Of a DNA stretch of 64,000 nucleotides, positions 25,726-48,744 are shown piece after piece. A model generated the notes under the pieces. The model ran no database searches and was not told the origin of the DNA. It worked only from the letters and a program-made list of their open reading frames with translations. Location of the stretch: contig CAVZZA010000005.1 in the NCBI GenBank assembly GCA_963779615.1, positions 384,001-448,000 on the forward strand, written 5' to 3'. A program made the translations under genes and the position numbers. This stretch comes from an uncultured Nitrososphaeraceae archaeon (GTDB taxonomy: Archaea > Thermoproteota > Nitrososphaeria > Nitrososphaerales > Nitrososphaeraceae). How positions within the stretch are numbered: the stretch's first letter is position 1; the number at the start of each line of letters is the position of its first letter.

Positions 25726-25826
25726 GCCGGGGTCGCCTAGCCTGGTAGGGCGCAAGCCTGGAATTAAAAGCAACATAAAGCTTGTGGCCCGTGAGGGCCT
25801 CGAGGGTTCGAATCCCTCTCCCGGCG
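25726..25826 (+). tRNA. tRNA-Ser(GGA) with 15-nt intron (25764-25778) at position 37/38
   Basis: Acceptor GCCGGGG/TCCCGGC, discriminator G, anticodon stem CAAGC/GCTTG with CT-GGA-A, long variable arm GGCCCGTGAGGGCC, T-arm GAGGG-TTCGAAT-CCCTC. Confidence 0.93.
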
Positions 25827-25828
25827 CT

Positions 25829-26270
25829 GATTTTCTTTTTTAATAACAATATTACTGGTTTTAGTAGGTTTTGGAGGCATGAACAGGATACTTGGGAGAT
25901 GTGCTTCGAACCCTCGAGGCCCTCACGGGCCACAAGCTTTTGTTGGTCGGGCATGTGATTATCGCCCTCAAAATCGGGAATTGTGGCAACTGTGAACCTT
26001 TTTCTTACCGATTTTGGTAAGATCGATTAAGGATTTTTCATGGTTGACCTTACTGAATTTGGTAAGATTTTTCTGTCCCTCATTGTTTATTTTACTGCTG
26101 ATTATAGCAAGATCGGAGTCAGGAAACAACTTTAGCAACAATGGCAGCTCTTTTTCCAAGAGAATGGAAAGTTTCCTTTTGATAACGGACTTTAGTTTGT
26201 ATTCATAGGATTTTGCAATGTCCTTTTGGCCTTGGAGAAACTGGATTTCGGACCTGGAGAGAAGTGACAT
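25829..26270 (-). pseudogene. N-terminal half (intN) of an SSV-type split integrase
   Basis: ORF 25968-26270 points toward att; the same frame resumes after stops as MPPKPTKTSNIVIKKENQRRERDS across the att core, the frame that enters the integrase at 38305. Confidence 0.7.
25905..25940 (-). repeat. Perfect 36-bp inverted copy of tRNA-Ser 25777-25812
   Basis: ttcgaaccctcgaggccctcacgggccacaagcttt is the exact reverse complement of aaagcttgtggcccgtgagggcctcgagggttcgaa. Confidence 0.98.
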
Positions 26271-26610
26271 ATTCTAGAAAGATAGACAACAAAAAGCATT
26301 AAAAAGTTTAAGAAATAATCTGATTTTTAAATTGTCTTCCTTGCTGGAATTTACTTCTTTCCAATACACAGTAAAAAATGGATTAAATCACATATTTGCA
26401 AATGCAAACAAATCGCTTTCGAAATAGATTTATTTTTATTATTGATTAGGCATAGGGAGTAGAGGCAGTAATCGAATGTCTCTAATGTTTCTTAATACAA
26501 CTAACATAGAATTAGACTCCATGAGGTTAATAGGCCTTTTTTTTATAGCTAAATAAATTCTAAATGAAGGTTAATTTTGTATTAAAAAAGAGTTCTAGCG
26601 TCAATGGGAT

Positions 26611-26714
26611 CTATCTGACCTGTCTGACTACCATGGATTCAATATTTTTTAATTTTCTTTTACACTTGTTTTTTTATTGTTGGATATGTCATATGTGTCA
26701 GATATGTCAGATAG
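26611..26714. repeat. 18-bp imperfect inverted repeat around a T-rich spacer
   Basis: ctatctgacctgtctgac (26611-26628) vs gtcagatatgtcagatag (26697-26714), 16/18 complementary. Confidence 0.8.
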
Positions 26715-26718
26715 AGGC

Positions 26719-26946
26719 CTACATGTAGATTGCATAGCCTACCAGCTGGATTATGAATCCTGTAATCAGCAGCATTGCGCCCAGTCTAGCCAACTGTGTT
26801 TCTAGTTTCCTATGCCTTATTTCATGCTCACTGTATTTTGACATTTGCTCGATTGTTTCTGTTGACCTAAAAATCTTGCCGTAATACATAAGGAATGCCG
26901 CAATCACGTCGATAACCAATCCAGCCATTATTACAATGAATAACAC
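26719..26946 (-). CDS. Small two-TM membrane protein
   Basis: 75 aa, two hydrophobic helices joined by a charged linker. Confidence 0.6.
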   Translation of the reverse strand: MLFIVIMAGLVIDVIAAFLMYYGKIFRSTETIEQMSKYSEHEIRHRKLETQLARLGAMLLITGFIIQLVGYAIYM

Positions 26947-27036
26947 CGTGCAAAATACTTGAAGAGAATATAAATACCAATTTGCCGATTTCTGAAGTCA
27001 TTTCGCATAGCTGGATGCCAGAACAACAGCAATTAC

Positions 27037-27460
27037 ATGGACAAAACATTGGACCATATGGGGAAAGAGAGAAAGAGAGAGGACAGCAATGAAAGACGCA
27101 GACAGGTTACACTTCACTCATTCAGGAGATTTGTGAAAACCACCATTTCTGATATTGGGTATGCAGACTATTCGGAGTATTTCATTGGGCATTTCGGCTC
27201 CACGTATTGGAGAAAAAAGGAATCAGAAAATGCCGAATTATTCAGGGAAATAGAGCCTTATCTCACGTTTTTAAACATACCCCAATTGGAAAGACAGGGT
27301 GCCTGATATCCTGAGCAAGGTAACTGAGTTGGAGGAGGTGAACCAGTCCCTGAGAGAGCGGGACAAAAGCAAGGACGACGCCATAGCAATGATCTCAGAC
27401 CAGCTTTTAACAGTAACAGAGAGACTGAATGAACTGGAAAGGAAGCAACAATTCGGATAA
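27037..27460 (+). pseudogene. XerC-type tyrosine recombinase C-terminal fragment
   Basis: TLHSFRRFVKT (HxxR), YFIGH..STYW (H, Y); coiled-coil tail continues after a frameshift near 27303; N-terminus absent. Confidence 0.8.
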
Positions 27461-27782
27461 AATAAAAAATCCTGTTATGCTGTTTTCTTTGTTAAATCAA
27501 GCATTATAGGCTTTATACCCGTATAATTATTTCCCTGTTTTTTATCTATCATTGTATCATTTGTTTCATTATATGCTAGTTATCGTAGTATCTTTTGTTG
27601 CTATTGATAGTCATGTATGAAAAACATTGATAAATCATATTGTAAAGATCTGATAAACATTCTCCATAAATTTATAGTATAAAGATTATGCTTACTTTTT
27701 CTGGTTAACAGACTCCAATAAAATGTCAGGTAACAACAGTCCTACTTCTAATTATACCAAAAAATGTATGTGAGTTTTAACT

Positions 27783-28384
27783 ATGAACAACACAAAAAAC
27801 ATTTTGCTTATGGCAGCGATAACGTCATTACTAATAATGGGAACAAGCATAGTCCCAATGCAGTCATATGCAGACAGGGACAATGACAACGACAAAAAAA
27901 CCAATGACTTTAAACCCTCAATAAGCGCAAGCTATGAATCAGACAAAAAAAGCGCAAGCCAACACCAGGACCAGGACAACTTCTGCTACAGGGGCGACAA
28001 CGAATGTGAACAAGCCAACCAAGGACAACAGATAGCCGGCAAGGACAATGAAGTAACCGGGTTCACTGACCAAAGCGAGAATATCCAGCAGTCATTAATC
28101 CCAATACAACCTGGAACAGGAACAGGAAATGGGACAACGCCAACGCCAACGCCAAAAACCTGTGTAGAATGCATTACAACTCTTCTTACAACACCAGAGA
28201 TAAATGAAGCCAAGAGAATTCTTTTTGTACAGGTTCACATACAGATGAACAATTATGTAATTTATTGGGCTCCTTATCCGCAGGGGAAGTTATAAACCTT
28301 TTAGAGGGATCAGGAGTTGACCCAACAATAGTTACTAAAGTGATAGAGTGCTTAAGATCTGTCGGAACAATATCTGGACCATAA
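27783..28384 (+). CDS. Secreted Q/N-rich protein with Cys-containing helical C-terminus (frameshift near 28225)
   Basis: Signal peptide ending QSYA; SQHQDQDNFCYRGDNECEQAN core; alternative frame gives DEQLCNLL...IECLRSVG to TAA at 28384; paralog at 44964. Confidence 0.7.
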
Positions 28385-28560
28385 CCATATTACTATCCAT
28401 TGACAAAAAGAATCGCCAAATAGCGACAAAAAGACACCTAAAACCATACAAACCTGACCATTCAATAGGATAGGCAGGCAACACTCCTCCTTTTTATTTT
28501 TATCAAGGTTCTTCTTATGCATGAAAAAGAATTTGTTTTTACTATGGATTTTAGAATTGC

Positions 28561-29397
28561 CTAATCGTCAAATAGTTCCTTTAGTCTTTTAATGCTTTCC
28601 AAATGGTCTTCAGAAATTCCATTATCGTATTTATAGTTCAATTGGGCTTGCATTGTTTCAGTAACTTTATCATCTACCTGCTTGTGTTTACTGGGTGATT
28701 CGAAGTTATTATCTTCAAGTGAATTATCTTCTTTTGCATTGTCTTTGATACCATTAAAATCAAAAGGATTATTAGAGTTTTCAGGTTTGTCAATACTTTG
28801 TCTTTCGACTGGGTTCCTATCAGTGTCTCGATCATTCTTATTTGGGTCTGTTCCCTTTGAGTGTAAAGAATCGGCATAACTTGAATCAAGCATGTCCTTA
28901 TCATAGAATTTTGATAAATTAGTTACAAAGGGCAAATCTTTTATCAAAAGGGTGTATGTCTTTGAAAGGCTGTGGAGTTCTTTTGTTGCGAGAATCTTTG
29001 TTTCTTTTGTTGTGTTTGTGTCCATCATTATTTTCCACATCTCCTTTTTTAGGTGCTCTATCTCGTCTATGCATTTTCTGTATGCCCCAACATATGCAAA
29101 ATGGTCCTTGGCCATATGATAATACCATTCCCTGTTTTCCTGCTCCTCTGCCTTCTTTAGGTATTCCATACAGGACCACTCTATCCATATCTTGGTCTTG
29201 GAGGCTATATACTGTTGTATACCCTTTAGGGTAAAGCCCTTTATGATTGCCTCCTTGTAGTTAAGCCTTACCAATTCTTTTTCTGTTCTTCTTAGTTGCT
29301 TCAATGACTTTACTCTCTTTAGTATTATTATCCTGTTGCCAAATATGTCTTCGTCTATTTCATTATAATGTTTAGAATTTTTTTCTGAAAATGCCAA
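28561..29397 (-). CDS. Hypothetical helical protein of the integrated element
   Basis: 278 aa intact ORF; its C-terminus EDHLESIKRLKELFDD recurs as a remnant near 45700-45760. Confidence 0.7.
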   Translation of the reverse strand: MAFSEKNSKHYNEIDEDIFGNRIIILKRVKSLKQLRRTEKELVRLNYKEAIIKGFTLKGIQQYIASKTKIWIEWSCMEYLKKAEEQENREWYYHMAKDHFAYVGAYRKCIDEIEHLKKEMWKIMMDTNTTKETKILATKELHSLSKTYTLLIKDLPFVTNLSKFYDKDMLDSSYADSLHSKGTDPNKNDRDTDRNPVERQSIDKPENSNNPFDFNGIKDNAKEDNSLEDNNFESPSKHKQVDDKVTETMQAQLNYKYDNGISEDHLESIKRLKELFDD

Positions 29398-29587
29398 GAT
29401 TATATTTATAAATATGTTGCAATAGAATATAGCCTTTTTGATTATTGCAATTATTTTTTATAACATGGTTAATATTATGTTACCATAGCAAATATCTTTT
29501 ATCTTTGGTTTAGTTACGAAGTATGAATTTTACCTTTTGGAATTTTTCCATATGATCACAACAATGCAAAAAGAGGATAGGATATAT

Positions 29588-29956
29588 TCATTTTATTTTT
29601 TGAAAATAATAAAATGAGTTCACACCACTGGCAAATGAAGATTCTTTGCCTTCGTCAATAGCCATCAGGCTATATCCTTCTTTTGTCAGGTCCTCAAATG
29701 CTATAATAAATTCAACCTGAGTTCCATATTTTCTTTGAAGAATTGCTATATACTCACTTTTGAACTGTATGACTCCGTCTTTGTCCCAATACTGCTTATA
29801 TGATCCAACTCTTTTTAGTAAAGCAGAATACCGATCTTTTTTAATTTGGTTAGAATCCTCATTATTGTTTTGCAGTTTATTGGTGGAACTGCCACAAAAA
29901 GAACAGAATTTTAAATTTTCAGCTATTTCCTTACCGCAAGTGGCACAAAAAGCCAT
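29588..29956 (-). CDS. Zinc-ribbon domain protein
   Basis: MAFCATCG-x8-FCSFCG N-terminus. Confidence 0.75.
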   Translation of the reverse strand: MAFCATCGKEIAENLKFCSFCGSSTNKLQNNNEDSNQIKKDRYSALLKRVGSYKQYWDKDGVIQFKSEYIAILQRKYGTQVEFIIAFEDLTKEGYSLMAIDEGKESSFASGVNSFYYFQKIK

Positions 29957-30822
29957 ATAGAACCGATATATTACAAATATAAAAATTCAACGATAAATTG
30001 ATTAATTCACCTATCGATACTAGTCACCCAAGTTATACGTTAGAGTAAAATGAATTTAAAACAGTTTAAAAGCACTCTTGCAAAACAATTCAAATCAATT
30101 AATAGATTTCTATATGTTGAATTTAGAAGAATCTATAGTTAGCAGGCAAATTCTCCATTAAAGAAATGGAGTTAAAGAGAAGATATAGAGAAATCAACCC
30201 TCCATGTTTCCTTTAGGTTATAAAATAAAGAAAAAATATTTGGTTAAGAATGCATATGTCTTCATTTACCGGATAGTATTGTCATTTATCAAGAAATGGA
30301 GAAAATTTACTCAGGCCAGCTCTTGCGGGTATTGTAATTATAATTATTTCTACTTTTTTCTTTGCAGCACAGAGCAACCCAAAACTTAAACCTTATTGGC
30401 CCTCTAATTTTTTGAATCCAGATACCTCAACAATTGTCAAATATGCGATACAAATAACATGAAGAATCACACTTGGAAGGTCAAAAATATGATTGAGAAT
30501 GATTATAAAAAAGAACGTTTGAGTTAATAAAGAATGGTAATTATAAAACAGTGTCTTTATTTGATACTTCTTAATTGTATTGGATAATCAATTGAATTTT
30601 GGATTTTATTTACATTTTTTAGTTGCTTTAGTTGCGTTTTAAAAAACCTTTGCGTTATTTGATTCTTCGGTTATGCTATTCTCTTCAAAATTTATTTCGT
30701 ATGGTTTTTTAACCAAAGTATGTTTGGTTGAATTGTTAAAACTCATTGCTTTTATTTTATAAATATTTGGAATTTTGTAAGGTGACTTCTTATATGCATT
30801 TATACAAAGTATTGTAACATAA

Positions 30823-32034
30823 ATGAGTAATTTAATTTACAAATGCAGTTTCTTTAACTTTAATATAACTGTGTTTGTTCTAATTGTTTTTTCAATATTG
30901 GCGATTGCTAATCCACTCCATTTCCCTAATGCATTGGCTCAATACCCATTAATCGATGTTTTGAATTTGATTAGTAAGGGTCATGACCTATATTATTTAA
31001 GTAATTATACTGAAGCCATAAAATCCTTTGACAAAGCCTTGCAACTAGATTCCTACTAATACAGATGCTTTGATTATGAAAGTTTACACTCTGGGTGATC
31101 AAGGGCAATTACTCTGAAGCCACAAAACTTTTAGATAAAGTGTTGAGTATTGATTCTGGTAATGAAGATGCATTATCCATAAAAGAATTAGCCATGTATA
31201 GTTTAGATGGTCATAATGAATCAATAGGATCTTATGATAAAATATTGGCTGTAGATCCTAATGATAGGGATGCTTTGTATGATAAAGGTATTGAGTTAAG
31301 AAGTTTTGGCAACTACACTGGAGCTTATAGAATACTTGGATAGAGTATTGGCTTTTGACCCAACAAATCCACAGGTCTTGAATAACAAAGGCGACACTCT
31401 AAATAAGTTGGGCAACCTCACAGGGGACTGATAAAATATTATGACAAAGTCTTAAAGATATACCCGAAAGAAGATAGAGCCTTGATTAGCAAAGGTGACG
31501 CCCTATATAATTTGGGCAACTACACTGGAGCAATAGAATGCTATGACAAAGCATTGTTGCAGGGCAAATCCTAAGAATAGAGAGGCTTCAGAACACAAAG
31601 CCTATGTCTTGTCTGTCATGGGTAACCAAACTGGATCGATAAAATCCTATGATAGAATCTTGAGTCTTTATCCAAATTATACAGATGCTTTGAAAAACAA
31701 AGGCCTTGGTCTATTAAACCTGCATAATTATACTGAAGCCATAAAATCCTTTGACAAAGCCTTGTTGGCAGATCCAGAGGATACTAGTGCCTTAAAACCC
31801 AAAGCATATGCATTATTTGCCATGGGCAACTACACTGGAGCTATAGAATACTATGACAAAACATTGGACATAAACCCCAAAGATACCATAACCTTGATTA
31901 GCAAAGGTGACGCCCTATCAAAGTTAGGCGTTTATGATGGATCTATTGCATACTATGACAAAGCCCTGACTATAGATCCTGAAAATCCGGTTGCGTTGAA
32001 GTTCAAAGGCGAAGCATTGAAAATGCTAAAATAG
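30823..32034 (+). pseudogene. Secreted TPR-repeat protein, fragmented
   Basis: Signal peptide then repeated NYTEAI..FDKAL..DP units over ORFs 30823-31059, 31095-31343 and 31543-32034, broken by frameshifts. Confidence 0.85.
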
Positions 32035-32342
32035 GATTGAAAATGATAAATTCTGGTTTTTCGGTAGGAAAATATCATAATGCAATTTATACAGTAATTC
32101 ACTATTTTGATACTGCAAACATTTTCACAACTTTAACACAGTCGGCTGCCATGACGAATAGTTATAGAAGAATGTTATATAACCATTGTCAAACGCAACT
32201 AGTTGCGAATTGAAAGTTACTCATTTTATTGAATATGCAAATGTTTAACAAATCTAATGTGTGAAAGGCACGTTAGAATCCATATTAATTTTTAACATTG
32301 ATTTTTGACGGTTGTTTTTAAACTGTCAGTATAAAAAAAGTT

Positions 32343-33454
32343 TTACTTTGATATATAATTATAAATCTCAGGAATCTCCTTTTTCAGTTTATCTTTGCCT
32401 ATAGGCAAGAAACCTTTATCGTTTCGCAGATTTTCTTTTATTTTTTGATATGGGTTAAAATCCAGTTTTTTACAAATATCACATTCATAAAGCCATTTTA
32501 GCAGTATCAAAGTAATTTCTTCATTATTCAATTTTTTGATATTTTTTAGATATGGTATTAATATCCTCCACAAACAAAACTTTCTATGATCTTTCAAAGG
32601 AGTTTTCAGCAGCTTTCTATCCAATCAATTCTGCTCTTTGTTTGGCCATGGCAATAAGAATAATTATTCGTTTTTGCTCTTTCTTCCTCCTCTATTTTTT
32701 TTGATAACAAATACGCATAGAAACTGCCAATCAGGTTGAGCATAGTGGTCCTGTTTCCACTCCATTTTTGCAATGCTTTGACTTGGGATTTTTCTGGACT
32801 TAACCCTTTGGCAAGACATTTTGAATTAAAAGAGCCAGGAACCCTTGCAAGGCAGGACTTTAATGAGGGGTTATTGCACTTGTCAGCATAGCCACTAGAC
32901 AAAAATTCCTTTGTGAACCTCAAAAACCTGTTGCTTGGGTTTTCAACAAAGTTAAAATCCTGTATGTTTTCCAATCTTAAACTGTCAATTGGCTGGTATA
33001 CATGATATCCATTACCGGTATGCAAAACAGTTGGGTTTGAGCAATCGAGTTTTTCCTTAATGTTTTTTAGTGTTTTGTCTAATGCTGTTTCTGCATTCAC
33101 ATAATCATTTTTATCAATATCTATGAAAATGAAGTCCGGCAGTGGATTATCAATTGAAGGAAATGCGTTTATCTTGCAATCTATATAATTGGCTTTTTTA
33201 AATTCCGATATTATGTCTTCTAAGTTATAAACATTGATCTGTTTTCCTTTTGTTCTAAAAGTGGATATAGTTCTGGGAAATAACGGGGTCTGAAAGTGAC
33301 CCAAAATGAATTTAGTGTTTTCAGCAATGCCTTGAAAGTAGTGGCAAGGGTTGTTTTTTCTTACAGCAGTAGTAGCAGCATTAGCAGCAAGATACTGATC
33401 AAAAGTTGCTGAAAGAAATTTTCCCCCTACTATTATATTTTTTAAATCTCCCAT
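32343..33454 (-). CDS. AEP primase fused to a PriX-like domain (frameshift near 32615)
   Basis: FIDID (motif I), HTGNGYHVY (motif II), GYAD..NNPS.KSCLARVPGSFN; ATA GAA AGC lacks one A to join WIEKLLKTPLKDHRKFCLWRILIPYL (PriX-like). Confidence 0.8.
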
Positions 33455-33494
33455 TTCTTTCCCTTAGGTTTTAAGTTGTATTTCTCCAAGTCTA

Positions 33495-35328
33495 TCAATC
33501 CCGGATATGCAATTTTGTTTGGGTGTTTGGAGAATCATTATGTTTTTCATATTCTTTAGGTTTATCGAAGAAATCAAAATCATTACAGTAATAGCATTCA
33601 AATGATTCTTTTTCTTGTTCTATTTCTTCTTCTTGATCATGTGTGTTTTGGTTGCCAAAATCATACAGTGTGTTAGGGGGGTATTTTTCTTGCAGCACTA
33701 TTGGGGATTCCTTTTTATCGTCAATCTCCACATCGGGTGTGAAACCGTCCCTTAAATCTTGAAACTCTTTGCTTAAAAACCATGAGAATTTCGGCTTTAA
33801 CTGTATTGTCTTTTCAGAGTTTTCATTCTCACATTCCAACAAGTCCACAATTCCAAGTCCCTTGAATTCAACCATGGTTCTTTTTGCTGTGGGTTTTGAT
33901 ATGTTCAATGAAAATTCAATTTGAGAAGAGGACAACTTGCCCTCTGCATTCAGTAGCAAATCAAGTATCCTCACCCTTTCAATTGACGCGGTTGAGAGGA
34001 CCACCTTAATGATTAGTGGAATGTCCTCAATGGTGATATAGTTTCTTCCTTGGTTGAGTGCAGATCCCCTTGCAAGGTTTCTGAGTCTGGTTATTGCCCT
34101 GTCCGGCTCCTCGATGATTGGAAGAGAAAAAGCATATTCCGTTCCCTGAGTCTCTTTGGTCTCCCATGTCTGAAGAATGCCCCTTAATGGCGACAATAGG
34201 TTTGCCAGTTTGATTATTATTCTTATGGCTTTTTCCTCGTCTTTGGTTTCTTCCCATATAATTTTTAATGGAAGCCCTTCTTTACCAACTTCTACATTAT
34301 TGTTTTCCCCATTGTTTGAATCAATCTCTTTTATAGGACATTTGTTAAACCATTCAAGATATTCTTCCAACTTGTTTTGCATTTCTCTGACTTTTTCCTG
34401 AAACTGTTTGCCCATTATCTGATCAGATAGTATTGGTCTTCTGATTTCTCTGTGATTTTGGGATTCTAAAAAAATACAGTTTTGGTCCAAGGGTGGAAAG
34501 ATACTTGTGCACCTTTCTTGATATTTCCACTGCGGCACCTATCCACACGAACATATACTCACCACTATACCCCCTGTGGCCTTGCGCTCCAGTATCGCTT
34601 TCATAGCCCTTGCCGTCCAAAATCCTAATGAGAATCCCAAGCAGTTCAATCAACTCTTCGTCTTTCTTGGCAAAGGTGGGTGACAACTCGGGCGTGAGGA
34701 ACAGTTTGTTTTTGATTTTGGGAAGCAAATCTATTTGGGGCAGGTTTTCCCTTTTTACTGCAGTGCTGTGAGTAACAAAGGATTTGGCACTAAAGTTGTC
34801 AGAATAAAAAGTGTGTTTTGTGTTTCTGAATAGTTCTATACCCAGTGTCTTCATTGAACTTGGCAATCCCAACACTATTCCGGCAAACGGCAGGGTGCAA
34901 TTATCAATATGCAAAATGTTTTTGACAGCAAGTTCAAACTCCAAAGACTCCCAGAGGTTTGGAAAGTTTTTTTCTGCTATTTCTTTTAGTTCATGGTAGT
35001 GTTGAATCAAAGTGGTTTTCCATTCTTCAAAAGTTACGTTTTCTTCACATGCTTTCTCAGGGGATTTATTGATATCTCTTTCCAATCCATAAAGTTGATA
35101 TAGGTTTTTTGAAATGGCGAAAATCAACTCTTCCTTTATTTTGTTATCTTTTGTAAAGTTGTCAAGGTTGTTTCTAATGTTATCAATTGTAGTCATAAAG
35201 TCAGCACTCATTTTTGTCTTTATGGTGTTAGCATTTATCTCAATAGCAATTTCATTATCCTTTAAAAAAAAGTTTGTAACTCCCTTGTTCTTTAATGATT
35301 CTGAGAGTGGAAAATCCTTAATAGTCAT
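33495..35328 (-). CDS. MCM-like AAA+ ATPase/helicase with wHTH and terminal zinc finger (frameshifted near 34430)
   Basis: GLPSSMKT Walker A variant, LFLTPEL Walker B, ILDGKGY, EEPDRAITRLRNLARG sensor-2 helix, wHTH, FECYYC; split over ORFs 34423-35328 and 33495-34538. Confidence 0.65.
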
Positions 35329-35506
35329 ATTGAACCCTTGACAATATTCTTAAAATATCGGACTGTTTATCCTCTATTCTCCGTATTACCTTGAATAATT
35401 CAGTGATTATAGGTCCAATAGTATCTATCTGGTTTATTGAAAGTGGTCCTTGAGAAGATTCAAAAGGTTTATAACCTTTTTTGTCAGTGTTGTTTATGTA
35501 ACCCAT
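35318..35506 (-). CDS. Small coiled-coil hypothetical protein
   Basis: 62 aa ORF between the AbrB-like gene and the ATPase, overlapping the ATPase start. Confidence 0.5.
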   Translation of the reverse strand: MGYINNTDKKGYKPFESSQGPLSINQIDTIGPIITELFKVIRRIEDKQSDILRILSRVQYDY

Positions 35507-35524
35507 TTTATACCACTTTTTTGT

Positions 35525-35725
35525 TTATGCTTTTTCTACAATGATTTGGTTAGAGTTTTGCCTTACTTTAACAAAGTCTCCTTTACCAATTCCTATGTTC
35601 AAAGCATATAGTTTGGGAAGAACAATTGAAAAAGAATGCTCACCCATTATTCCCTGAACTTTTCTATACTGATATTCCATTGATTGATTTTCTTTTGAAT
35701 TTTTGAAATTTTCGTTATTTACCAT
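35525..35725 (-). CDS. AbrB/MazE/SpoVT-family DNA-binding protein
   Basis: RKVQGIMGEHSFSIVLPK.YA.NIGIGKGDFVKV.....IIVEK; first gene of the replication operon. Confidence 0.85.
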   Translation of the reverse strand: MVNNENFKNSKENQSMEYQYRKVQGIMGEHSFSIVLPKLYALNIGIGKGDFVKVRQNSNQIIVEKA

Positions 35726-35936
35726 AACTTGGTCATATACATAAATAAAGAAAAAGAGGTAAAGATTATTGGGGGGCTACCTATTCTAACACAAAAAAAA
35801 GGATATCTGACATGCTCAAAAAACAATTGCAACAGAAGAGGATTTATAGCAAAACGTTTTCGTAAAACCCGAGTTCAAATCCCTAGTAAAAAAAATATTG
35901 ATACAATAGTTAAAGTCTCTAGACTATAACTCAAAG

Positions 35937-37101
35937 TTGTTTTACAGACTATATGAATTTTTAACATACCTGCCTTTTGATAAGAAGCTTGAGGATAAAT
36001 ACAATATTGCCAAATATCAAAGATTTGTCCCCTTTTCGCCTCACACTATAGAAGAAACTATAAGTTTTGAAGACAGATTCAAAAAAATTCTTTCAAAAAA
36101 ATTTGAAAAATACAATAAAAAAAATTCAAATAGTTTGGAAGATAATAAGATAATAACTCCCGCAAAATAATATCGATAACAAAACTCTATACAAACTAAA
36201 TAGAACCATAGACAAAGAGACCGAAAAGAATGTCCTTAGATCGTCCATAGCCTGCCTTTATTATTCCATATCATTTGCTGCATTGAGAGATTTGTATGCT
36301 GAAATGGAGATAACCGGTTTTCAAACACCTTGCTCTCAAGAACTTAAAACTAAAATAGACGAAATTAATAGAATAATCCCAAAATGTCTCTTACTTGTTA
36401 GTTTATCTGGTGAATATCTGGTAGATAAAAGATATCATATTCAGGTGAATAAAATACGGAAATTAATGATAGATTCTTGGGAATTTGGATATAATGCGGC
36501 GTCGACAATAAATTCTTCTGAGTGGTTAATTTGTGAAAAATGCTTAAAGAAGGGACGCAAATCACATTTTGAAAAAGAAGAATGTGCTGTTTGCAAAAAT
36601 TCCAGGAAGAAAATATCAAAGATAAACCCTAAATCAATTCGAACAATGAAATTCAACATTATTAATGATATAAGGCATTACATTTTTTATTATTGTCGTT
36701 TTTTAGATTTTATGAGCAGACTTACAGAACAAATTAAAAACAATGAGCATATTAGAAAGGAATATTTATCGTATTTTAAAGGACATGAGGAACAAATACT
36801 CAAGTCAGAGCATTCTTATCTAAAACAGCCTAGTTATTATATGTGCCATTACGATACGGCAAATCCCTCAAAAAGAAAAACATGTTCATTAACCAAAAAT
36901 GACATTTTGAATGTAAAAATAAACGATAATGAATATAATAAATTAATTATGGACGCTGTTGAAAAAAAACCCATTGATAAAGGTCCTGAAAGGCTAATGG
37001 CAATTCTAGATAAATACAGGTATCCAAAAGAATTCGCTTTAGAAAAAACTTTTATAGATTTTATGAAAATTTCATTAAAAAAATCTGACAATAAAAAGTA
37101 A
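35937..37101 (+). pseudogene. Hypothetical protein with CxxC pairs, probably fragmented
   Basis: ORFs 35937-36170 and 36283-37101 on the same strand; CEKC...CAVC. Confidence 0.45.
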
Positions 37102-37453
37102 TATTATTTCTATTATAAAAAAAGAAGCAATTGGTCTAATTATCAAAGTATCAAAATAAAAGGCTGTCACTATTTTCCAATTTATTTATTTTTTAAGTTA
37201 ATGTTATAAGTTGACCATAGTCATTGACAATAAAATCATTTTTTTTACCTTTTAACGGTTTAGTAATAAATTAATATAAGATAACTATCTACTAAGCATA
37301 ATAATTTAATATAGCAACCAAAGTTAAAGGGTCTTTTAATCTAATCAATATAGCAATATTATTGTTCGTTAGTTACAAAAAATGTATTTTTTTAAGATTA
37401 ATACATTTTAAATATCTATTCATGATGGATTAAATTATAGTATAGAATCACCA

Positions 37454-38305
37454 TTAATCAACAGTCAATAATTCTTTAAACAATGAATCCAAAACTGGTT
37501 TTACCTTGTTTGTGATTATCGCATTCACGTCTGGCCTATAGTAATGATTTACAAATATGGAGGAGGGTGTTCTTCCTTGCAGCAAATCGATTATCTCACG
37601 CTCTATACCGTTATTCCTTAAATATGTTGCAAAGACCTTACGACAGTAATACATGTTCGTTTTTAATCCACCTTTTTTGAATATTTTTCTAAAAGAGGTA
37701 TAGTTTAAAGCTCCGACAGTATTTTGTGCCGTCTCCAAAATTTCCTCATTGATTATGCTTAAATACGCTTTTTTTGATATCCTTAGAAAAACATTTGGAA
37801 ATCTATAGTGCAGCAACAACATGCGTTTCTTATCTATATACTCACAGGGTTTATTTTTTATCAGATTAATGGCATTGTAGGATTCATCAGGCCGCAGGCC
37901 AGTCAGTGTGTTAAACAACACAAGGTTCCCGTATTCTTTTGGCAGTCTATGTATGGAATCCCTTATCCATTTAACCATGGAAGAGTAGTTTTGGTCCTCA
38001 TTGCTAAAGATCTTTTCAAAAACGTCATAACCGCTCTTTTTGGGCCACTTTAACTGGTACCTTTTGATTAAATCCAGCCATTTGTCATAAACTCCCAGGT
38101 ATTTTGACAAGGACGACAGAGACTTCATTGCGTGTTGCCTTGTCTCCACAGACAGGTTTAACAGGCATTGGGCGTCTTCCTTTTCCAGAACACCATAAAA
38201 TTTCTTGACATATTGGAGTTTGTTCCTTATGGTATGCGGGCTTTGCTTTTGGGCCATAAGATAGTCTTTAAAGTTGCTCCACAAGTCATTGTCATACACA
38301 GTCAT
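37454..38305 (-). CDS. SSV-type tyrosine integrase, C-terminal half (intC)
   Basis: TGLRPDE (R), SKKAY (K), YYCRKVFATYL, IDLLQGR, NHYY (Y); frame stays open upstream through the att core (RRERDSCNSIAKSM). Confidence 0.92.
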   Translation of the reverse strand: MTVYDNDLWSNFKDYLMAQKQSPHTIRNKLQYVKKFYGVLEKEDAQCLLNLSVETRQHAMKSLSSLSKYLGVYDKWLDLIKRYQLKWPKKSGYDVFEKIFSNEDQNYSSMVKWIRDSIHRLPKEYGNLVLFNTLTGLRPDESYNAINLIKNKPCEYIDKKRMLLLHYRFPNVFLRISKKAYLSIINEEILETAQNTVGALNYTSFRKIFKKGGLKTNMYYCRKVFATYLRNNGIEREIIDLLQGRTPSSIFVNHYYRPDVNAIITNKVKPVLDSLFKELLTVD

Positions 38306-38327
38306 TGATTTTGCAATGCTGTTGCAA

Positions 38328-38346
38328 GAATCCCTCTCCCGGCGCT
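38328..38346 (+). repeat. att site 2 (tRNA-Ser 3' end copy)
   Basis: Exact match to 25810-25828. Confidence 0.95.
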
Positions 38347-39503: not shown

Positions 39504-39922
39504 TTTATTCTTTACTTTCCAATTATTGCTAGATAGAATTTACCGAAAATCCAGATTCCTTGCAAGACGAAGGTTTTTTGGTCTTCTAATAGTCAATACA
39601 CGAGTAAAATCAGTTGATGATTTCAAGTTCTTGAGACGGGTTTTGTTTGTTATATTCCATATCTTGGGAATTGAAAATGAGTAAAACCCCGAATTTTCTC
39701 TTGAGTAGTAATTGATAAGGAAATAAGGATCATAATTGTCTTGGAATAAAAGAACAAGAGCCTTATCCTCAGGTCTACAATTCTGAAAAGAGAATAATCT
39801 CGTTTATTGTAACAGCTCAACTCGCAACCGAGGGAGTTATTGTACACCCGGTGAAAGGCGACTTTCAAAATGAATAAAAAAAGGGGTAATAGGCGATTGC
39901 CTTCCCTAAAGAGGCGGCGGGC

Positions 39923-40607
39923 CTAATAGTTAGGCGTAGGGCCTAAAGAATTGGCTTCACTGGTGATGCAGAAACTTAGCGCATCCTGTTGTATTTGGGT
40001 AAACCCTGGTTGGGCGGCTGCCAAGAGGCTATTGACTTCGTCCAATACCAATTGTCTGTCGTATCGAGTCATATTTCCATTTTCCATTAAATTCCATACC
40101 CCCTCCATATTAGTTATTGGACCGCTACCTCCAGCTATATTTTCATTTATTGATGTTAGTTTGTTGTGCGCAGGTAGTAAGGAGAAAAAAATCTGTACAC
40201 TTTTTGTGTAATTTTGAGCATCGCCAGTGCTTACCTTCGCTTCTCCAACTGTCTTGAAACAATCCATTGTGGCATTACTGAGGCCTTTGAAATGTGAGTG
40301 TATAGGACAAGTATCCATTGTAGCGTTTGACATGAAACAATTCATTTGGGTCGTTTCCTGGGCTTTGCGCTACCACAGACGAATCTGAAACATTTCCGGG
40401 TGTTAAATGGGGATGTTTGCTCAAGCCAGATAATTGCGCTACCACAGACGAATCTGAAACATTTCCGAGGCCTTGCGCTACCACAGACGAATCTGAAAGA
40501 GAGGTTACTGCTGTGAGTCCGGCTACGGCAAAGGCCAGCACAACGAACAAAGCCACTGCTTTTCCTTTTTGGGGCATAATTGTCTCAAACATGCTAATAA
40601 TCTTCAA
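39923..40607 (-). CDS. Secreted protein with internal SDSSVVAQ repeats (frameshift near 40346)
   Basis: Signal peptide in ORF 40275-40607; removing one base joins it to ORF 39923-40345; lies directly downstream of the MCO. Confidence 0.6.
40365..40498. repeat. Three direct repeats (34, 34 and 26 bp)
   Basis: ttgcgctaccacagacgaatctgaaa(catttccg) at 40365, 40434 and 40473. Confidence 0.9.
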
Positions 40608-40620
40608 ATAACATCATCAC

Positions 40621-42079
40621 CTATTTGACGACCTCAAAGGTACCCATCATGCCAAAGTCCCCATGGAACATCAGGTGGCAGTGAAAGACGGATTTTCCCA
40701 CAAAATCATCAAATGGGATTCGGATGACCACTTCACCTTCAGTTGGAAGAATAACTGTATCTTGGTATCCGTGAGCGTCATATGGTTTTCCGTTAACTGA
40801 CATTACCTGAAAGTCATTTACATGGATATGAAATGGATGGATGTTGCCAGATGAGATTTTATCAAGGTTTACCAACTTCCACTCCTCTACAGTTCCAAGT
40901 TTAGGTTTGATGTCTATTCTGTTAGGATCAAACTTCGTGTTATTTATCGTGTATATCCAATCTCTATCGTTTGATGAGAAATTAAGGACTCGATAATTAG
41001 AGATGTTCGCATTACTCAGGTCTCTCTTTGGAATTAAGCTTGTTGGAAGGGTATCTGCAGGTTTCACATCTTTTTGGTTACCTTGTATATTTACAGTCGC
41101 AACGTGTAAATCGTACGGTGCAGTAAAGGGGTTACTAGGAGCTCCTAATGGAATAGACCCGTTCCCGTTGGCAGTCACCAGTACATCATACCGTTTTCCA
41201 GAAGGAAAGAAAAGAGTATCATTGTTCCATACCTCCCAAACCGGACTTCCATCTTCTGCTATAACATGGAATTTGTTGCCGGGGAGTTCAAGTGTGAGTT
41301 CATTCTCAGGACCGATGTTGGCAAGGCGCCATAACTGGGTCTCGCCTGATTTGATGTTGATAACTGGATTGACTTCCCCGTTAACGGTCAGGCGTTCATG
41401 GCCTGACATTGTGTTACTCAAATCATGCGTAGTAACGAATAGATTGTCAAATGGAAAATCCTTCATGGCAAAGGTCTGTGTTGTGATATTCTGTAATGGC
41501 GCTGGCAATAACTTTTCTAAACCTTCAACAATAAACAAGCCAGACAGACCTGCCGAAACTTGTCCATAAGAAAGCATATGCAAATGTGAATGATACCATA
41601 ACGTGCCTGGATCGTGATCTTTTGGAATATCGACAGAATAATGCTGTGTCTTGCCAGGCGCAACATCCAGAAATACATTATCAGAAGTATTTCCAGGAGA
41701 CACATGAATTCCATGGAAATGGAGGTTGGTAGACTCATTGAGATTGTTTACCAAATCAATCTCCACTCTGTCTCCAGGATAGACATGCAAAGTAGGTCCC
41801 ACGAGAGAACCATTGTATACCATTCCAGTGATTGTCTTGTTGTCAACTTTACCTATCTTGTAATCTGCAACGAGTGTAGTTTGCAAAACACCTTCTTTGC
41901 TGTATACGTCCTGAGACTTTGAAAAGTTCATCCCAGCCAAAGGACGAGGATTGATTTTGGGCAAGGGCGTTATGGTCTGAAGATTCAAATGCAAACACCA
42001 TCACCAAAGCAAACATCGTGATGGAAAAAGCGGATATTAAGCCACAAGTGTTAATGGAGGACCTTATTGTGTGGATCAT
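40621..42079 (-). CDS. Multicopper oxidase; signal peptide separated by a frameshift near 41940
   Basis: HFHG, WYHSH, HPFHIH and HCHLMFHGDFGM copper motifs; signal peptide in ORF 41849-42079 joins after removing one T in TCC T TTG GCT. Confidence 0.9.
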
Positions 42080-43339
42080 TTAGTTAAATCCACCTTGTTT
42101 TGGTCTTTCCAGATAATTAGTTTTATGTTCAATTCCTACATTGTTCCGTTTACGAATAAAGTAGGCTTTTCTATTATGACTCATTAGTAATGGTCACTTA
42201 TAGCAATTGCTATTTAACGCTTGTGTTATTTATTGTAATTGTTTTACTAAATTTACAAAAGATAAAAAATTCGTTATGGCTACAAGTGTAAAATGAAGAA
42301 TATGATTCTGTGTGTCCCTTGACCAATATTTTTTGGGTATTTTGGAGAAGTAACAGAATAATTTAAACCCATGGGGTAGAAAAAGAATTAAGAAAAGTTT
42401 AGTTTGGACAATTGGTGTCAGCATGTTTCTACCTAGAAGTATGGATCTTAAAACCAACAGAAGATTTGGAGTTGAGGCCTTTTCGGTTCAGAGAAAGTGA
42501 AAAAATAATATTCAATTAATATGAACACGAAGAAGTCTAGCATACCACCGATATATAAAATACAAGATAACTTCATTGTGATGTTGAACAAAATGCCAGT
42601 CCTTCAAATAGACATTTCATGAAAGAAGATATCATATTCTAAATTCTATAGTTCTAGAATTACAGAAATACTTTGAAATAGGACAATAAAAACGAACTTT
42701 CTGTCATTTACAAATAAAGAGGAACGGATGAAAAACAAAATAGATCAATCAAAAATGACATTTGAAGAAGTTAAAGAAATAATTTGCAAAAAGGAAATTT
42801 ATGACGAGCACCCCAATTATAGAACTAATAAAATTAACAGGCTATGGAATTAAAAAAGATATGAGGACAAATCAAGTTATAATAACTTAAGAAAATAACA
42901 ATGCATGATCTATTATTTTTAGATATAGCCTTTTTTATCTTAAAACCGTTATTATCATATTTCATAATTTTGATTATGTAAAAACGTTATTCTTAAAGGA
43001 CTATGAAACAATTCCTTGTTTTTCTGATCCACTGACCATGGAGAATGCTCAAAATCAAATATTGCATAATATTTCTCATTTCATCAAATTTTTTCTCCAA
43101 TACATCAAATCAGAAATTTATACTGATTGTTCATCAACTGCGGATGGATTTTTTTTCTGAATCTTATCAACTAAACCGTTGTGTTGCAAGAATCTTGAAT
43201 TTTTCAATATTATTTTTATTGGCAAACTTAACACTATCTTGCATAATGTCAAGAAAACAAATTGTATATAGAATTTTAATATTATTATAACTACTAGGCA
43301 AATTTTGTATTACATTAAATTATAAATATCTCATCACCA

Positions 43340-44204
43340 TTAATCGATAGTTATTAATTCCTTAAACAATGAATCCAAAACGGGTTTTATCATATTTGTG
43401 ATTATCTCACTAATATCTGGTCTATAATAATGATTAACAAATATCGTTGAAGGGGTCCTTCCTTGCATTAGATCGATTGTTTCAGATTCTATTCAATTGT
43501 TCCTTAAATAGGTAGCGAAAATTTTGCGGCAATAATACATATTCGTTTTTAGGCCACATGCTTTGAATTTTTTTTTAAAAGAAGTATAATTTAAAACCCG
43601 ACAGTATTTTTTGCCGTTTCCAAAATTTCCTTATTAGTTATGCTTAGGTATGCTTTTTTTGGGACCCTTAGAAAAACATTTGGAAACCTGTAATGCAGCA
43701 ATAGCATGCGTTCCTTATCTATATACTCATCGGGTTTAATTTTTACCAGTTTAATGGCATTATAAGATTCATCAGGTCGCAAACGAGTCAGTGTGTTAAA
43801 TAATACAGGATTCCCATACTCTTTTGGCAATTTATGTATTGAATCCTTTATCCATTTAACCATGAAAGGATAGCTTTTGTCTTAATTGCTAAAGATCTTC
43901 TGGAAAACTTCATAACCGCCTTTCTGGGTCCACTTTAACTGATACCTTTTGATCAAATCCTGCCGTTTATCATAAATTCCCAGGTAGTTGGATAAAGACG
44001 ACAAGGATTTCATGGCGTGTTGCCTTGTTTCTCCTGATAATGTTAAAAGCACCTCGGCATTGTTAGATTGAAGCACCCCCATAGGATCTTTTGGCATGCT
44101 GGAGTTTGTTCCTCATGGTGTGATGGCTTTGTTTTTGACCTATCAGATAGTCCTTATAATCATTCCATAATTTAGTATCATTGTTAATATTATTGTTACC
44201 AATA
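43340..44204 (-). pseudogene. Second SSV-type integrase C-half, frameshifted
   Basis: Paralog of 37454-38305 (RRERDSIG..LWNDYKDYL, TRLRPDESY, YYCRKIFATYL, IDLMQGR) broken by several indels. Confidence 0.9.
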
Positions 44205-44223
44205 GAATCCCTCTCCCGGCGCT
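44205..44223 (+). repeat. att site 3
   Basis: Exact gaatccctctcccggcgct, followed by gattttcttt as at 25829. Confidence 0.95.
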
Positions 44224-44654
44224 GATTTTCTTTGATTTTTTATGCTGAAATTATTGGTTTTAGTAGTGCTTTGAGGCATGCAGTTATTGGGAGATTGATT
44301 CGAACCCTCGAGGCCCTCACGGGCCACAAGCTTTAGCTGGTCTGACATGTCATTATCCCTCTCAAAATCGGAACTATGGCAACTGTCAACCTTTTTCTTA
44401 CCGATTTTGGCAAGGTTGGTTAAGGATTCTTTATGGTCGATCTCACTGAATTTGGTAAGATTTTTCTGATCCTCACTGTTAATTTTGCTGCTGATTGTAG
44501 CAAGTCACAATCAGGAAATAACTTTAGCAATAATGGCAGCTCTTTTTCGAAAAGAATGGAAAGTTTCTTTTTGATAAAGGACTGTATTCATAGGATTTTG
44601 CAATGTCCTTTTGGCCTTGAAGAAAATGGATTCGGACTTGGAAAGAAGCGACAC
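44224..44654 (-). pseudogene. Second intN half
   Basis: Homologous to 25829-26270; reads KIGKKKVDSCHSSDFERDNDMSDQLKLVAREGLEGSNQ... toward att3. Confidence 0.75.
44297..44335 (-). repeat. Perfect 39-bp inverted copy of tRNA-Ser 25776-25814
   Basis: gattcgaaccctcgaggccctcacgggccacaagcttta. Confidence 0.98.
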
Positions 44655-44963
44655 TTTCTGGATGGACAACAAAAAGCATTAAAATTTTTAAATTACAGTA
44701 TGATCATATGTTGGAATCAATCAAATTTTTGGATTAATATCCCCTTTTTTATCCTTGAAAAAAGGCATATTATCGTAGTATCTTTATTGCTATTGAAGGT
44801 AAGTGTAAACAAAATTGTTAAATTACTAGGCAAAGTTATGCTAAACATTCCTATTTACATTCATAGTATAAAGATCATGCTTACCTTTTCAGGTAAACAA
44901 ATTCCAATAAAATATCAGGGATCAACAATCCTATTCCAGTTATACAAAAAATGTGAATGAATT

Positions 44964-48471: not shown

Positions 48472-48680
48472 AACCGCCACCACATAAGCACAATAGTCAA
48501 CAAAACAAATAATTGGAAAAAATCAAACGTCTTTAAAGGTGCATACAGCTCATCATTTTGTTCTTTTAATGCAGAATAAACCATGTAATTATTTTGAAAT
48601 ACTACATGCTCAAAATCTAATATATATATAATCATTCGTTGGTGGTTTATAGTGGAGTTTTCATTAACTTCATTCTTTTG

Positions 48681-48744
48681 TGTTTCTCCTCGAGTGTTGC
48701 CACTGAGGTCTGATCCCTATCCCGGCGCCTTCCACTTGGAGACA
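48681..48744 (+). repeat. att site 4: degenerate tRNA-Ser 3' core flanked by inverted (TG)TTTCTCC / GGAGACA arms
   Basis: tgtttctcc-N23-atccctatcccggcgc-N9-ggagaca. Confidence 0.75.

What the first reader, a model, noticed from the sequence alone, without database searches (positions are those of the whole stretch)
44297..44335. Second tRNA mirror, perfect although 18 kb from the tRNA
Seen: 39/39 reverse-complement match to 25776-25814, 73 nt from att3 (76 nt in copy 1), while the flanks of the two copies differ by many substitutions and indels (e.g. gcacatctcccaagtatcctgttc vs tcaatctcccaataactgc). Inference: the mirror belongs to the element family and is kept identical to the target by selection or gene conversion, rather than being a one-off local duplication. 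This is the best internal support for the top finding.
Basis: partly seen in the sequence, partly recalled or inferred. Interest (0 to 1): 0.8.

Follow-up and report, generated by a model that had tools for sequence, protein, structure and literature searches.

The report
Inverted tRNA half inside split integrase gene
The perfect inverted copy of a serine tRNA half is real and sits inside the broken front piece of an archaeal integrase gene that splits itself on integration; it looks like a tRNA-derived relic kept matched to the neighbouring tRNA gene.

Summary
Observation confirmed: 44297-44335 is a 39/39 reverse complement of tRNA-Ser(GGA) 25776-25814. The host is a Nitrosocosmicus-like archaeon.

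The main result is a reinterpretation. The small ORF beside the mirror (25968-26270, minus strand) is the N-terminal fragment, int(N), of an SSV-type "suicidal" integrase. Its gene carries attP and is split on integration. The catalytic part, int(C), lies at 37454-38305. Rebuilt junctions in relatives give single 441-aa and 409-aa frames, and a natural unsplit 440-aa protein exists.

The mirror lies in the linker between the two parts. Intact homologues translate it as KLVAREGLEGS.

It is a family feature, found in 12 of 34 genomes of the genus. It occurs only in elements that target tRNA-Ser(GGA).

Elsewhere it is imperfect. It matches the local tRNA best in 6 of 11 cases.

Both window copies are pseudogenes, yet their mirrors have no change (joint P about 0.001; copy 2 alone about 0.06). 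A third copy far from any tRNA decays at its flank rate.

Best reading: a tRNA-gene-derived relic homogenised with the adjacent tRNA. A role as an integrase-binding site is not excluded.

The parts
25726..25826 (+). tRNA-Ser(GGA) gene with a 15-nt intron. It is the integration target (attB) and the sequence that the mirrors copy.
   Evidence: Rfam RF00005, 43 bits. ARAGORN with introns on the genome copy: tRNA-Ser (gga) i(37,15).
25810..25828 (+). att1: the 19-nt core shared with att2 (T-loop to 3' end of the tRNA). Identity with att3 runs on to 25838.
25851..25868 (.). 18-bp near-palindromic site 'a' between the att core and mirror 1. The same motif family recurs as sites b (26004-26021) and c (26049-26066). 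On the minus strand these sites encode the repeated LTKFSK/LTKIGK peptide motif.
   Evidence: Read. The motif is conserved in all family members.
25905..25940 (-). Mirror 1: 36/36 inverted copy of tRNA positions 25777-25812. Weaker homology extends over 25894-25945, into the intron and the acceptor part. Here it is out of frame and carries stops.
25968..26270 (-). int(N): the N-terminal fragment of a split SSV-type integrase gene (the 'ORF100'). It is a pseudogene in this copy: the linker between it and the att core is frameshifted around the mirror.
25829..38327 (.). Integrated element A (about 12.5 kb), bounded by att1 and att2. A native-like tRNA downstream flank follows att2.
37454..38305 (-). 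int(C): the catalytic part of the integrase (283 aa from the ATG). Its frame stays open upstream through att2 and reads the core as RRERD.
   Evidence: Pfam PF16795, 27.3 bits against a cut-off of 27. phrog_5127, integrase. Open frame of 296 aa. The reading of the core is my translation of the sequence.
38328..38346 (+). att2: a 19-nt direct repeat of the tRNA 3' end.
43333..44181 (-). Decayed second int(C) copy, 74-85% identical to 37447-38295, with stops.
   Evidence: (repeats D2, D3, D7), (2 TAA and 1 TGA inside).
44205..44233 (+). att3: a 29-nt perfect repeat of 25810-25838. It is the junction between the decayed int(C) and the decayed int(N) of the next element, an attP-like tandem junction.
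44297..44335 (-). Mirror 2 (the finding): 39/39 inverted copy of 25776-25814, or 47 nt with 2 mismatches over 44289-44335. It is in phase with the upstream linker and reads ...DQLKLVAREGLEGSN. It is out of phase with the att core.
44348..44680 (-). Second int(N) copy, with frameshifts in the N-terminal domain (1-nt and 7-nt deletions relative to copy 1).
48715..48728 (+). Possible fourth, degenerate att core (1 mismatch in 14), followed by a native-like flank.
   Evidence: Not followed further.

Best explanation
The mirror is a piece of the tRNA-Ser(GGA) gene, running from the intron to the start of the acceptor 3' strand. It lies in the sense orientation inside the linker-coding part of an SSV-type ('suicidal') integrase gene.

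In the free, circular element one long gene reads: N-terminal domain, then a linker with LTKFSK repeats, then the mirror, then one or two more repeats, then the att core (antisense to the tRNA, translated RRERD), then the catalytic domain. Integration at the 17-19-bp core splits this gene. int(N), carrying the mirror, ends up beside the tRNA. int(C) ends up at the far end of the element. The tRNA half and the mirror then form an inverted repeat about 90-130 nt apart.

I read the mirror as a relic. It is either an earlier canonical attP, or a templated inverted copy made while an ancestor sat beside the tRNA. It sits in the same slot and orientation as the attP of a tRNA-Glu-targeting relative.

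Its perfect state in this genome comes from non-reciprocal homogenisation with the selected tRNA gene, by gene conversion or quasi-palindrome template switching. It does not come from selection on a function of these two dead copies.

Status of the steps:
- Shown: the split-gene architecture, the coding context, the family distribution and the lack of decay.
- Inferred: the origin of the mirror and the conversion mechanism.
For: Split gene:
- The G001 junction rebuilt from its two att cores gives one open frame of 452 codons (441 aa from the first M). It runs from the ORF100-like N-terminus through the mirror and core into the integrase.
- The G043 element has a 59-nt repeat equal to the tRNA-Glu(CTC) 3' half in coding sense, and a 409-aa junction ORF.
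- The G128 tRNA-Val att is read in the same frame from both sides.
- A natural unsplit 440-aa protein, P0005, has PF16795 and the same N-terminus.
- Intact integrated int(N) genes read mirror, core and antisense tRNA in one frame (P0001-P0004; L095-L099, 156 aa).

Derived from gene DNA: the homology reaches into the intron in copy 1, G144, G103, G119 and G096.

Lineage-specific: relatives at tRNA-Gln and tRNA-Arg(CCG) have no mirror. Of 35 tRNAs in this genome, only Ser(GGA) has one within 1 kb (score 40, next best 13.5).

Homogenisation:
- Lineage-specific changes in 159 flank columns are 16 (copy 1), 12 (copy 2) and 13 (copy 3). In the 36 mirror columns they are 0, 0 and 3. Copy 3 has no tRNA within 26 kb.
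- Both window copies are pseudogenes.
- Apparently intact elements have less perfect mirrors, for example G001.
- The G096 mirror shares the local compensatory variable-arm pair. P0003 and P0004 do likewise at the protein level.
- In L096 against L097, 7 of 16 differences over 2481 nt fall within 44 nt around the mirror.
Against: - A central block, the 19 nt from the variable-arm loop to the T-loop, is conserved in both subfamilies as well as the palindromic sites are (0.67 against 0.72-0.77). The neighbouring linker DNA is not alignable. That pattern would also fit a selected DNA site.
- The T-stem 3' strand is mutated in every mirror, although it lies between two conserved blocks. Plain conversion would tend to restore it.
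- Tracking of the local tRNA fails for 5 of 11 mirrors and for P0001.
- Copy 2 is now 18.5 kb from the tRNA. Conversion there needs either an earlier adjacent position or exchange with copy 1.
- I could not derive a concrete series of events that produces both the sense mirror and the antisense core.
- No direct evidence of conversion tracts exists for this genome.
Confidence: 0.5

Rival explanations
1. The mirror is a working cis-element of attP. It would be an inverted copy of the attB arm that lies immediately left of the identity block. The integrase, or a partner protein bound at the flanking 18-bp palindromes, would bind it to build the recombination complex or to set directionality. It would work like an arm-type site.
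For: - The best conserved part of the mirror is exactly the tRNA segment adjoining the core identity block.
- It is flanked on both sides by conserved 18-bp palindromes.
- Block identity is 0.67, against 0.10-0.43 for the spacers.
- The half that would make it a complete second att, the T-stem 3' strand, is always destroyed. That would prevent self-recombination.
- G144, G103 and G119 keep the same block although their local tRNA differs.
Against: - Relatives of the same integrase family at tRNA-Gln and tRNA-Arg(CCG) have no such copy.
- G001, the element with a fully open 441-aa junction frame, has 3 changes in the 20-nt block.
- The most perfect mirrors are in pseudogenised copies.
- No binding data exist. 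The integrase has no recognised arm-binding domain.
Confidence: 0.22
2. Conservation reflects protein constraint on the linker peptide (KLVAREGLEGS) of the full-length integrase. The resemblance to the tRNA would be only historical.
For: - The mirror is translated in frame in intact homologues. EGLEG is present in 6 of 7 distinct intact int(N) sequences that I inspected (G124, L097, P0001-P0004; not G001).
- Changes in the REGLEGS codons fall 13, 13 and 23 at positions 1, 2 and 3.
Against: - There are 23 non-synonymous against 13 synonymous codon changes in that block.
- The motif is absent from relatives that target other tRNAs.
- The rest of the linker is free to vary and to change frame.
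- Both window copies are pseudogenes yet perfect.
- The R-to-C change in G096, P0003 and P0004 follows the local tRNA allele, not the peptide.
Confidence: 0.08
3. RNA-level role. In the integrated state the int(N) transcript would run through the core into the antisense of the tRNA. The sense mirror would pair with that antisense stretch in a 36-47-bp hairpin. This could end or mask an antisense RNA against tRNA-Ser, or report the integration state.
For: Only geometry supports this. int(N) ORFs do read into the antisense tRNA (P0001-P0004; ORF 25679-25954). A need for pairing would explain matching to the local tRNA.
Against: - There are no expression data. The runs I found hold only small parts of the stretch.
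- The variable-arm hairpin is not kept in many mirrors.
- Tracking fails in 5 of 11.
Confidence: 0.05
4. Chance. The perfect state of copy 2 would simply be a lucky stretch in a recently dead copy.
For: For copy 2 alone P is about 0.05-0.06. An equally long perfect run, 37 columns, exists elsewhere in the same alignment.
Against: The joint P with copy 1 is about 0.001. The block is conserved family-wide.
Confidence: 0.1

Closest known systems
SSV-type (type I, 'suicidal') archaeal tyrosine integrases: SSV1/SSV2, pTN3, pT26-2 (review PMC8371274, passages read; PMC7253208, section 16 and passages read)
   Same: Pfam PF16795 domain. attP lies inside the integrase reading frame. The gene is split into int(N) and int(C) on integration into a tRNA gene. 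Frames change around the att segment. There is evidence of chimeric int(N)/int(C) histories.
   Different: - The host is a mesophilic soil ammonia oxidiser.
- In the Ser lineage the working core is only 17-19 bp and antisense to the coding strand.
- A second tRNA-derived segment lies in the opposite orientation in the same gene.
- The elements stand in a tandem array, which PMC7253208 (section 16) says was not observed for suicidal integrases.
NitEve-E3 of Nitrososphaera evergladensis, which carries an SSV1-like integrase split on integration (PMC6563490, passage read)
   Same: A split SSV-like integrase in the same archaeal class.
   Different: It is a single reported case. The passages I read mention no inverted tRNA copy. 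I did not compare sequences.
Concerted evolution of closely spaced inverted repeats by gene conversion or quasi-palindrome template switching (recalled from general knowledge; no paper read here)
   Same: One arm (the tRNA) is under selection. The other arm stays identical while its flanks decay. A copy removed from the partner decays.
   Different: Not demonstrated here. Copy 2 is now 18.5 kb from the tRNA.
Arm-type sites of lambda-like attP, and the folded attP(+) of CTX phage built from two inverted dif-like sites (recalled; not read here)
   Same: Extra recombinase-related sequence near the core. For CTX, two target-like sites in inverted orientation about 90 nt apart.
   Different: No arm-binding domain was found. 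No single-stranded stage is known. The part of the mirror that could pair with the core is its least conserved part.

Membership tests
SSV-type (suicidal) integrase module | Catalytic domain of Pfam family PF16795 (Phage_integr_3) | tested here: met
   int(C) 37454-38305: E 3.9e-6, 27.3 bits against a cut-off of 27, so it passes only just. phrog_5127 integrase, E 3.9e-12. The unsplit homologue P0005 carries PF16795.
SSV-type (suicidal) integrase module | attP lies inside the integrase ORF, and integration splits the gene into int(N) and int(C) at the two ends of the element | tested here: met
   Met in relatives: G001 junction frame of 452 codons, G043 409 aa, G128 same frame on both sides, and the natural 440-aa fused protein. 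In the window the arrangement is the same: int(N) at att1, int(C) at att2, and the int(C) frame open through the core. But int(N) is frameshifted, so no intact gene could be rebuilt from it.
SSV-type (suicidal) integrase module | Target is a tRNA gene, and direct repeats of the tRNA end flank the element | tested here: met
   att1 / att2 / att3. A native-like flank follows att2.
SSV-type (suicidal) integrase module | Catalytic residues of the tyrosine recombinase (R, K, H/Y-x-x-R, Y) | not tested
   Candidate motifs are visible by eye in the translation. They were not aligned to characterised enzymes.
SSV-type (suicidal) integrase module | att identity of about 40-50 bp (PMC8371274, passage) | tested here: not met
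   In the Ser lineage the core is 19 bp at att1/att2, and 17 bp if the G001 boundary is used. The tRNA-Glu relative has 59 bp. Short att sites are reported as usual for this archaeal class (PMC6563490, passage).
Inverted repeat kept alike by gene conversion or template switching | The repeat arm has fewer changes than its flanks on the same lineage | tested here: met
   0 changes in 36 against 16 in 159 (copy 1) and 12 in 159 (copy 2). Joint P about 0.001.
Inverted repeat kept alike by gene conversion or template switching | The arm follows variants of the local partner | tested here: inconclusive
   The local tRNA is best or joint best for 6 of 11 mirrors. It is uniquely best only in G000 and G096. 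P0003 and P0004 follow it, P0001 does not.
Inverted repeat kept alike by gene conversion or template switching | A copy without a nearby partner decays at the flank rate | tested here: met
   Copy 3 (G000:C3:412948-412984): 3 changes in 36 against 13 in 159 in its flanks. The nearest tRNA genes on that contig are at 386254 and 523250. This is a single case.
Arm-type or accessory recombinase binding site | Bound by the recombinase or a partner, and needed for recombination | not testable with these tools
   Only sequence conservation is available.

The most novel reading that the evidence does not exclude
The integrase gene of this lineage deliberately carries a mimic of its own target. This would be an inverted copy of the attB arm, kept matched to the host tRNA, which the enzyme binds (or which pairs at the RNA level). 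It would control assembly, orientation or reversibility of a recombination that otherwise destroys the enzyme's own gene. That would be a new kind of attP architecture for suicidal integrases and a built-in read-out of the integrated state.
Probability: 0.2. Interest if true: 0.7.

Novelty: new variant of a known kind. Interest (0 to 1): 0.45.

Why it matters
- A large family of self-splitting integrases exists in a mesophilic soil ammonia-oxidising genus. It targets at least eight tRNA species, in both orientations. A review I read (PMC8371274, passage) describes such enzymes as a development of hyperthermophilic archaea.
- These genes carry readable traces of how they change or re-orient their target site. 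The mirror is either a fossil of such a switch or a working accessory site. Either way it gives a concrete handle on how these enzymes evolve specificity.
- For annotation, the small 'hypothetical' ORFs next to tRNA genes in these genomes are integrase N-terminal fragments.

Tried and rejected
- Public sequencing runs. No run held more than 0.19 of the sampled words. Laying four runs showed only the tRNA and short pieces, with no joints. This says nothing on expression, excision or inversion.
- Pfam and PHROGs gave no family for the small ORF alone.
- The search for related loci with the integrase found only 2 loci. I replaced it with a genus-wide search.
- Mirror as the remnant of a complete element-borne tRNA: no 5' half was found upstream of it.
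- Structured RNA: the variable-arm stem is broken in many mirrors.
- Separate short gene starting at ATG 25954 / 44348: the frames after the mirror differ between the copies. In intact homologues the stretch belongs to one long int(N) frame.
- Single-strand fold-back attP of the CTX kind: the segment that could pair with the core is the least conserved.
- Origin by recombinase-mediated inversion at the palindromic T-loop, worked through on paper: none of the products matches the observed order, so I dropped it.
- Earlier findings of this scan: none for this genome.
- Literature. Searches, and passages of PMC6563490, PMC8371274 and PMC7253208, gave no description of an inverted tRNA copy inside an integrase gene. 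Supplements were not opened and may list related elements.

Full report
**1. Check of the observation**

Window 44297-44335 is the exact reverse complement of 25776-25814.
- A 37-nt pattern from this stretch has three matches in the window: the tRNA, copy 1 with one mismatch, and copy 2 with none. None is expected from shuffles.
- The repeat finder gives 47 nt at 96% for copy 2 and 36/36 for copy 1.
- The partner is a tRNA gene at 25726-25826 (Rfam, 43 bits). ARAGORN with introns calls it tRNA-Ser(GGA) with a 15-nt intron.
- The 3' end of that tRNA is repeated directly at 38328-38346 (19 nt) and at 44205-44233 (29 nt). There is a possible degenerate fourth copy at 48715-48728.

The window is G000:C5:384001-448000 of a 3.17-Mb genome. 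Its relatives are titled Candidatus Nitrosocosmicus.

**2. What surrounds the mirror**

An integrase of Pfam family PF16795 (Phage_integr_3) lies at 37454-38305 on the minus strand. Its start is 23 nt from att2. A decayed copy lies before att3.

After att1 and after att3 come two homologous left ends. Each holds the mirror and a small minus-strand ORF (25968-26270 in copy 1; frameshifted in copy 2). The sequence after att2 resembles the native flank of unoccupied tRNA-Ser sites in two other genomes. So 25829-38327 is a discrete 12.5-kb element, and the locus is a tandem array.

**3. The small ORF is the front part of the integrase**

Frames across the mirror stay open in nearly all family members when it is read as ...REGLEGS.... 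I therefore rebuilt the circular junction of the G001 element in a script. This gave one open frame of 452 codons (441 aa from the first M). It runs from the ORF100-like N-terminus through the mirror and the att core (read as RRERD) into the integrase.

Further evidence for a split gene:
- A second element, in G043, has a 59-nt repeat equal to the 3' half of tRNA-Glu(CTC) in coding sense, and a 409-aa junction frame.
- A third, in G128, has a 96-nt repeat made of the promoter and 5' half of tRNA-Val. It is read in the same frame from both sides.
- A natural unsplit protein of 440 aa, with PF16795 and the same N-terminus, is in the protein collection (P0005).
- Intact integrated int(N) genes read mirror, core and then the antisense of the tRNA in a single frame (P0001-P0004; five metagenome loci of 156 aa).

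This is the defining architecture of SSV-type, 'suicidal' integrases (PMC8371274 and PMC7253208, passages and section 16 read). One split SSV1-like integrase has been reported in a related genus (PMC6563490, passage).

In the window both int(N) copies are pseudogenes. In copy 1 the mirror is out of frame and carries stops. In copy 2 the N-terminal domain is frameshifted, and the mirror is out of phase with the core.

**4. Distribution of the mirror**

With the tRNA half as query, 33 of 34 genomes of the genus matched. By reading the loci I found mirrors in 12 of these genomes: G000 (three copies), G144, G103, G119, G096, G162, G082, G001 (two copies), G114, G124, G151 and G152. I also found them in metagenome loci L095-L100, L141, L156 and L157. 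The mirror is always 65-125 nt from the att core, between 18-bp near-palindromic sites.

Family members with the same N-terminal domain sit beside tRNA-Gln, Arg(CCG), Arg(TCG), Val, Glu, Ala, Asp and Phe (ARAGORN calls, not checked further). Those convergent with tRNA-Gln and tRNA-Arg(CCG) have no inverted copy of their target. Among 35 tRNA genes of this genome, only Ser(GGA) has one within 1 kb (score 40; next best 13.5).

The homology reaches into the intron of the tRNA gene, so the mirror was copied from gene DNA. It ends inside the acceptor 3' strand. The T-stem 3' strand is mutated in every copy.

**5. Is it kept identical?**

Copy 1 against copy 2: 95 of 496 columns differ. A pre-specified 36-column window without any difference has a hypergeometric P of 3e-4, or 2e-3 for substitutions only. 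An equally long perfect run exists in the N-terminal coding part.

With the third copy of this genome as reference, the lineage-specific changes are as follows.

| Copy | Changes in 159 flank columns | Changes in 36 mirror columns |
|---|---|---|
| Copy 1 | 16 | 0 |
| Copy 2 | 12 | 0 |
| Copy 3 | 13 | 3 |

This gives P of about 0.02 for copy 1, about 0.06 for copy 2, and about 0.001 jointly. Copy 3 has no tRNA within 26 kb and decays at its flank rate.

Across the family the mirror is conserved but not identical. In subfamily B the block has a mean pairwise identity of 0.67. The palindromic sites have 0.72-0.77 and the spacers 0.10-0.43. The local tRNA is the best or joint-best match for 6 of 11 mirrors.

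Evidence on tracking of the local tRNA:
- G096 shares a local compensatory pair in the variable arm.
- P0003 and P0004 show the same at the protein level. P0001 does not.
- G144, G103 and G119 keep an ancestral-looking loop, unlike their local tRNA.
- In two near-identical metagenome loci, 7 of 16 differences over 2481 nt lie within 44 nt around the mirror. That looks like a patch exchange.

**6. Coding constraint**

In the seven codons REGLEGS, changes fall 13, 13 and 23 at positions 1, 2 and 3. There are 13 synonymous and 23 non-synonymous codon changes. These counts come from 14 copies that are not independent, and two of them are poorly aligned.

There is thus a weak coding signal in intact lineages. 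It cannot explain identity to the tRNA, the absence of the motif in relatives with other targets, or perfection in two pseudogenes.

**7. Reading**

The mirror occupies the same slot and orientation, in the linker and in coding sense, as the working attP of the tRNA-Glu relative. The working core of the Ser lineage is short and antisense.

I therefore read the mirror as a tRNA-derived relic. It is either an older attP or a templated inverted copy. It is tolerated because the linker is free to vary, and it is homogenised with the adjacent, selected tRNA gene.

A role as an accessory recombinase site remains possible. The sharp block conservation and the consistently disabled T-stem half favour such a role. 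I could not derive the event that produced both segments.

**8. Limits**

- There are no expression or binding data.
- Related genomes are not independent samples.
- DNA of P0001-P0004 was not available.
- Supplements of the papers were not read.
- Quasi-palindrome correction, lambda arm sites and the CTX attP are recalled from general knowledge, not from papers read here.

Noticed in passing
window 43333-44680: The att3 junction is a tandem junction: a decayed int(C), then att3, then a decayed int(N) of the next element. PMC7253208 (section 16) states that tandem integration had not been observed for suicidal integrases. A second case is in G001 (L064, a degenerate left end after the int-proximal att).
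   Followed up: partly
window 25851-25868, 26004-26021, 26049-26066; all family loci: 18-bp near-palindromes (CTTACYNNNTTNRGTAAG or ATTACTNNNTTNNGTAGC types) recur 2-4 times in the integrase linker. They encode a repeated LTKFSK/ATKFSN peptide motif. They are conserved as DNA even where the frame is lost, which suggests protein-binding sites inside the gene.
   Followed up: partly
L092 (G128:C1:462300-474500): A relative integrates at tRNA-Val(GAC) with a 96-nt repeat that covers the tRNA promoter and 5' half up to the anticodon stem. This is a 5'-side att carried inside the integrase frame.
   Followed up: partly
L096 against L097, positions 1524-1567: 7 of 16 differences between two otherwise near-identical 2481-nt metagenome loci cluster around the mirror, and most are G-to-A. 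This may be a patch exchange with a decayed copy, or an assembly chimera.
   Followed up: no
window 27037-27306 (+): An 89-aa ORF that by eye looks like the C-terminal end of another tyrosine recombinase (H-x-x-R-R ... Y). It has no Pfam or PHROG hit. It lies in a 1.2-kb stretch that is missing from copy 2.
   Followed up: no
window 38347-43332: The stretch between att2 and the decayed int(C) holds a multicopper oxidase (40621-41994, three Cu-oxidase Pfam domains) and ORFs of unknown family. It may be cargo of an older element.
   Followed up: no
G000:C1:252905-253651, C3:374838-375215, C5:223860-224303: ARAGORN calls tRNAs with 'introns' of 653, 309 and 353 nt. These are probably tRNA halves duplicated by integration events rather than real introns.
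   Followed up: no
G000:C3:265728-266795: Another integrase of this family starts just after tRNA-Gly(GCC), with its frame open for 352 aa. It is probably a further int(C) fragment.
   Followed up: no
window 48680-48728: A degenerate att core (1 mismatch in 14) is preceded by a sequence that faintly resembles a tRNA 3' half and followed by a native-like flank. It may be the old outer end of the array.
   Followed up: no
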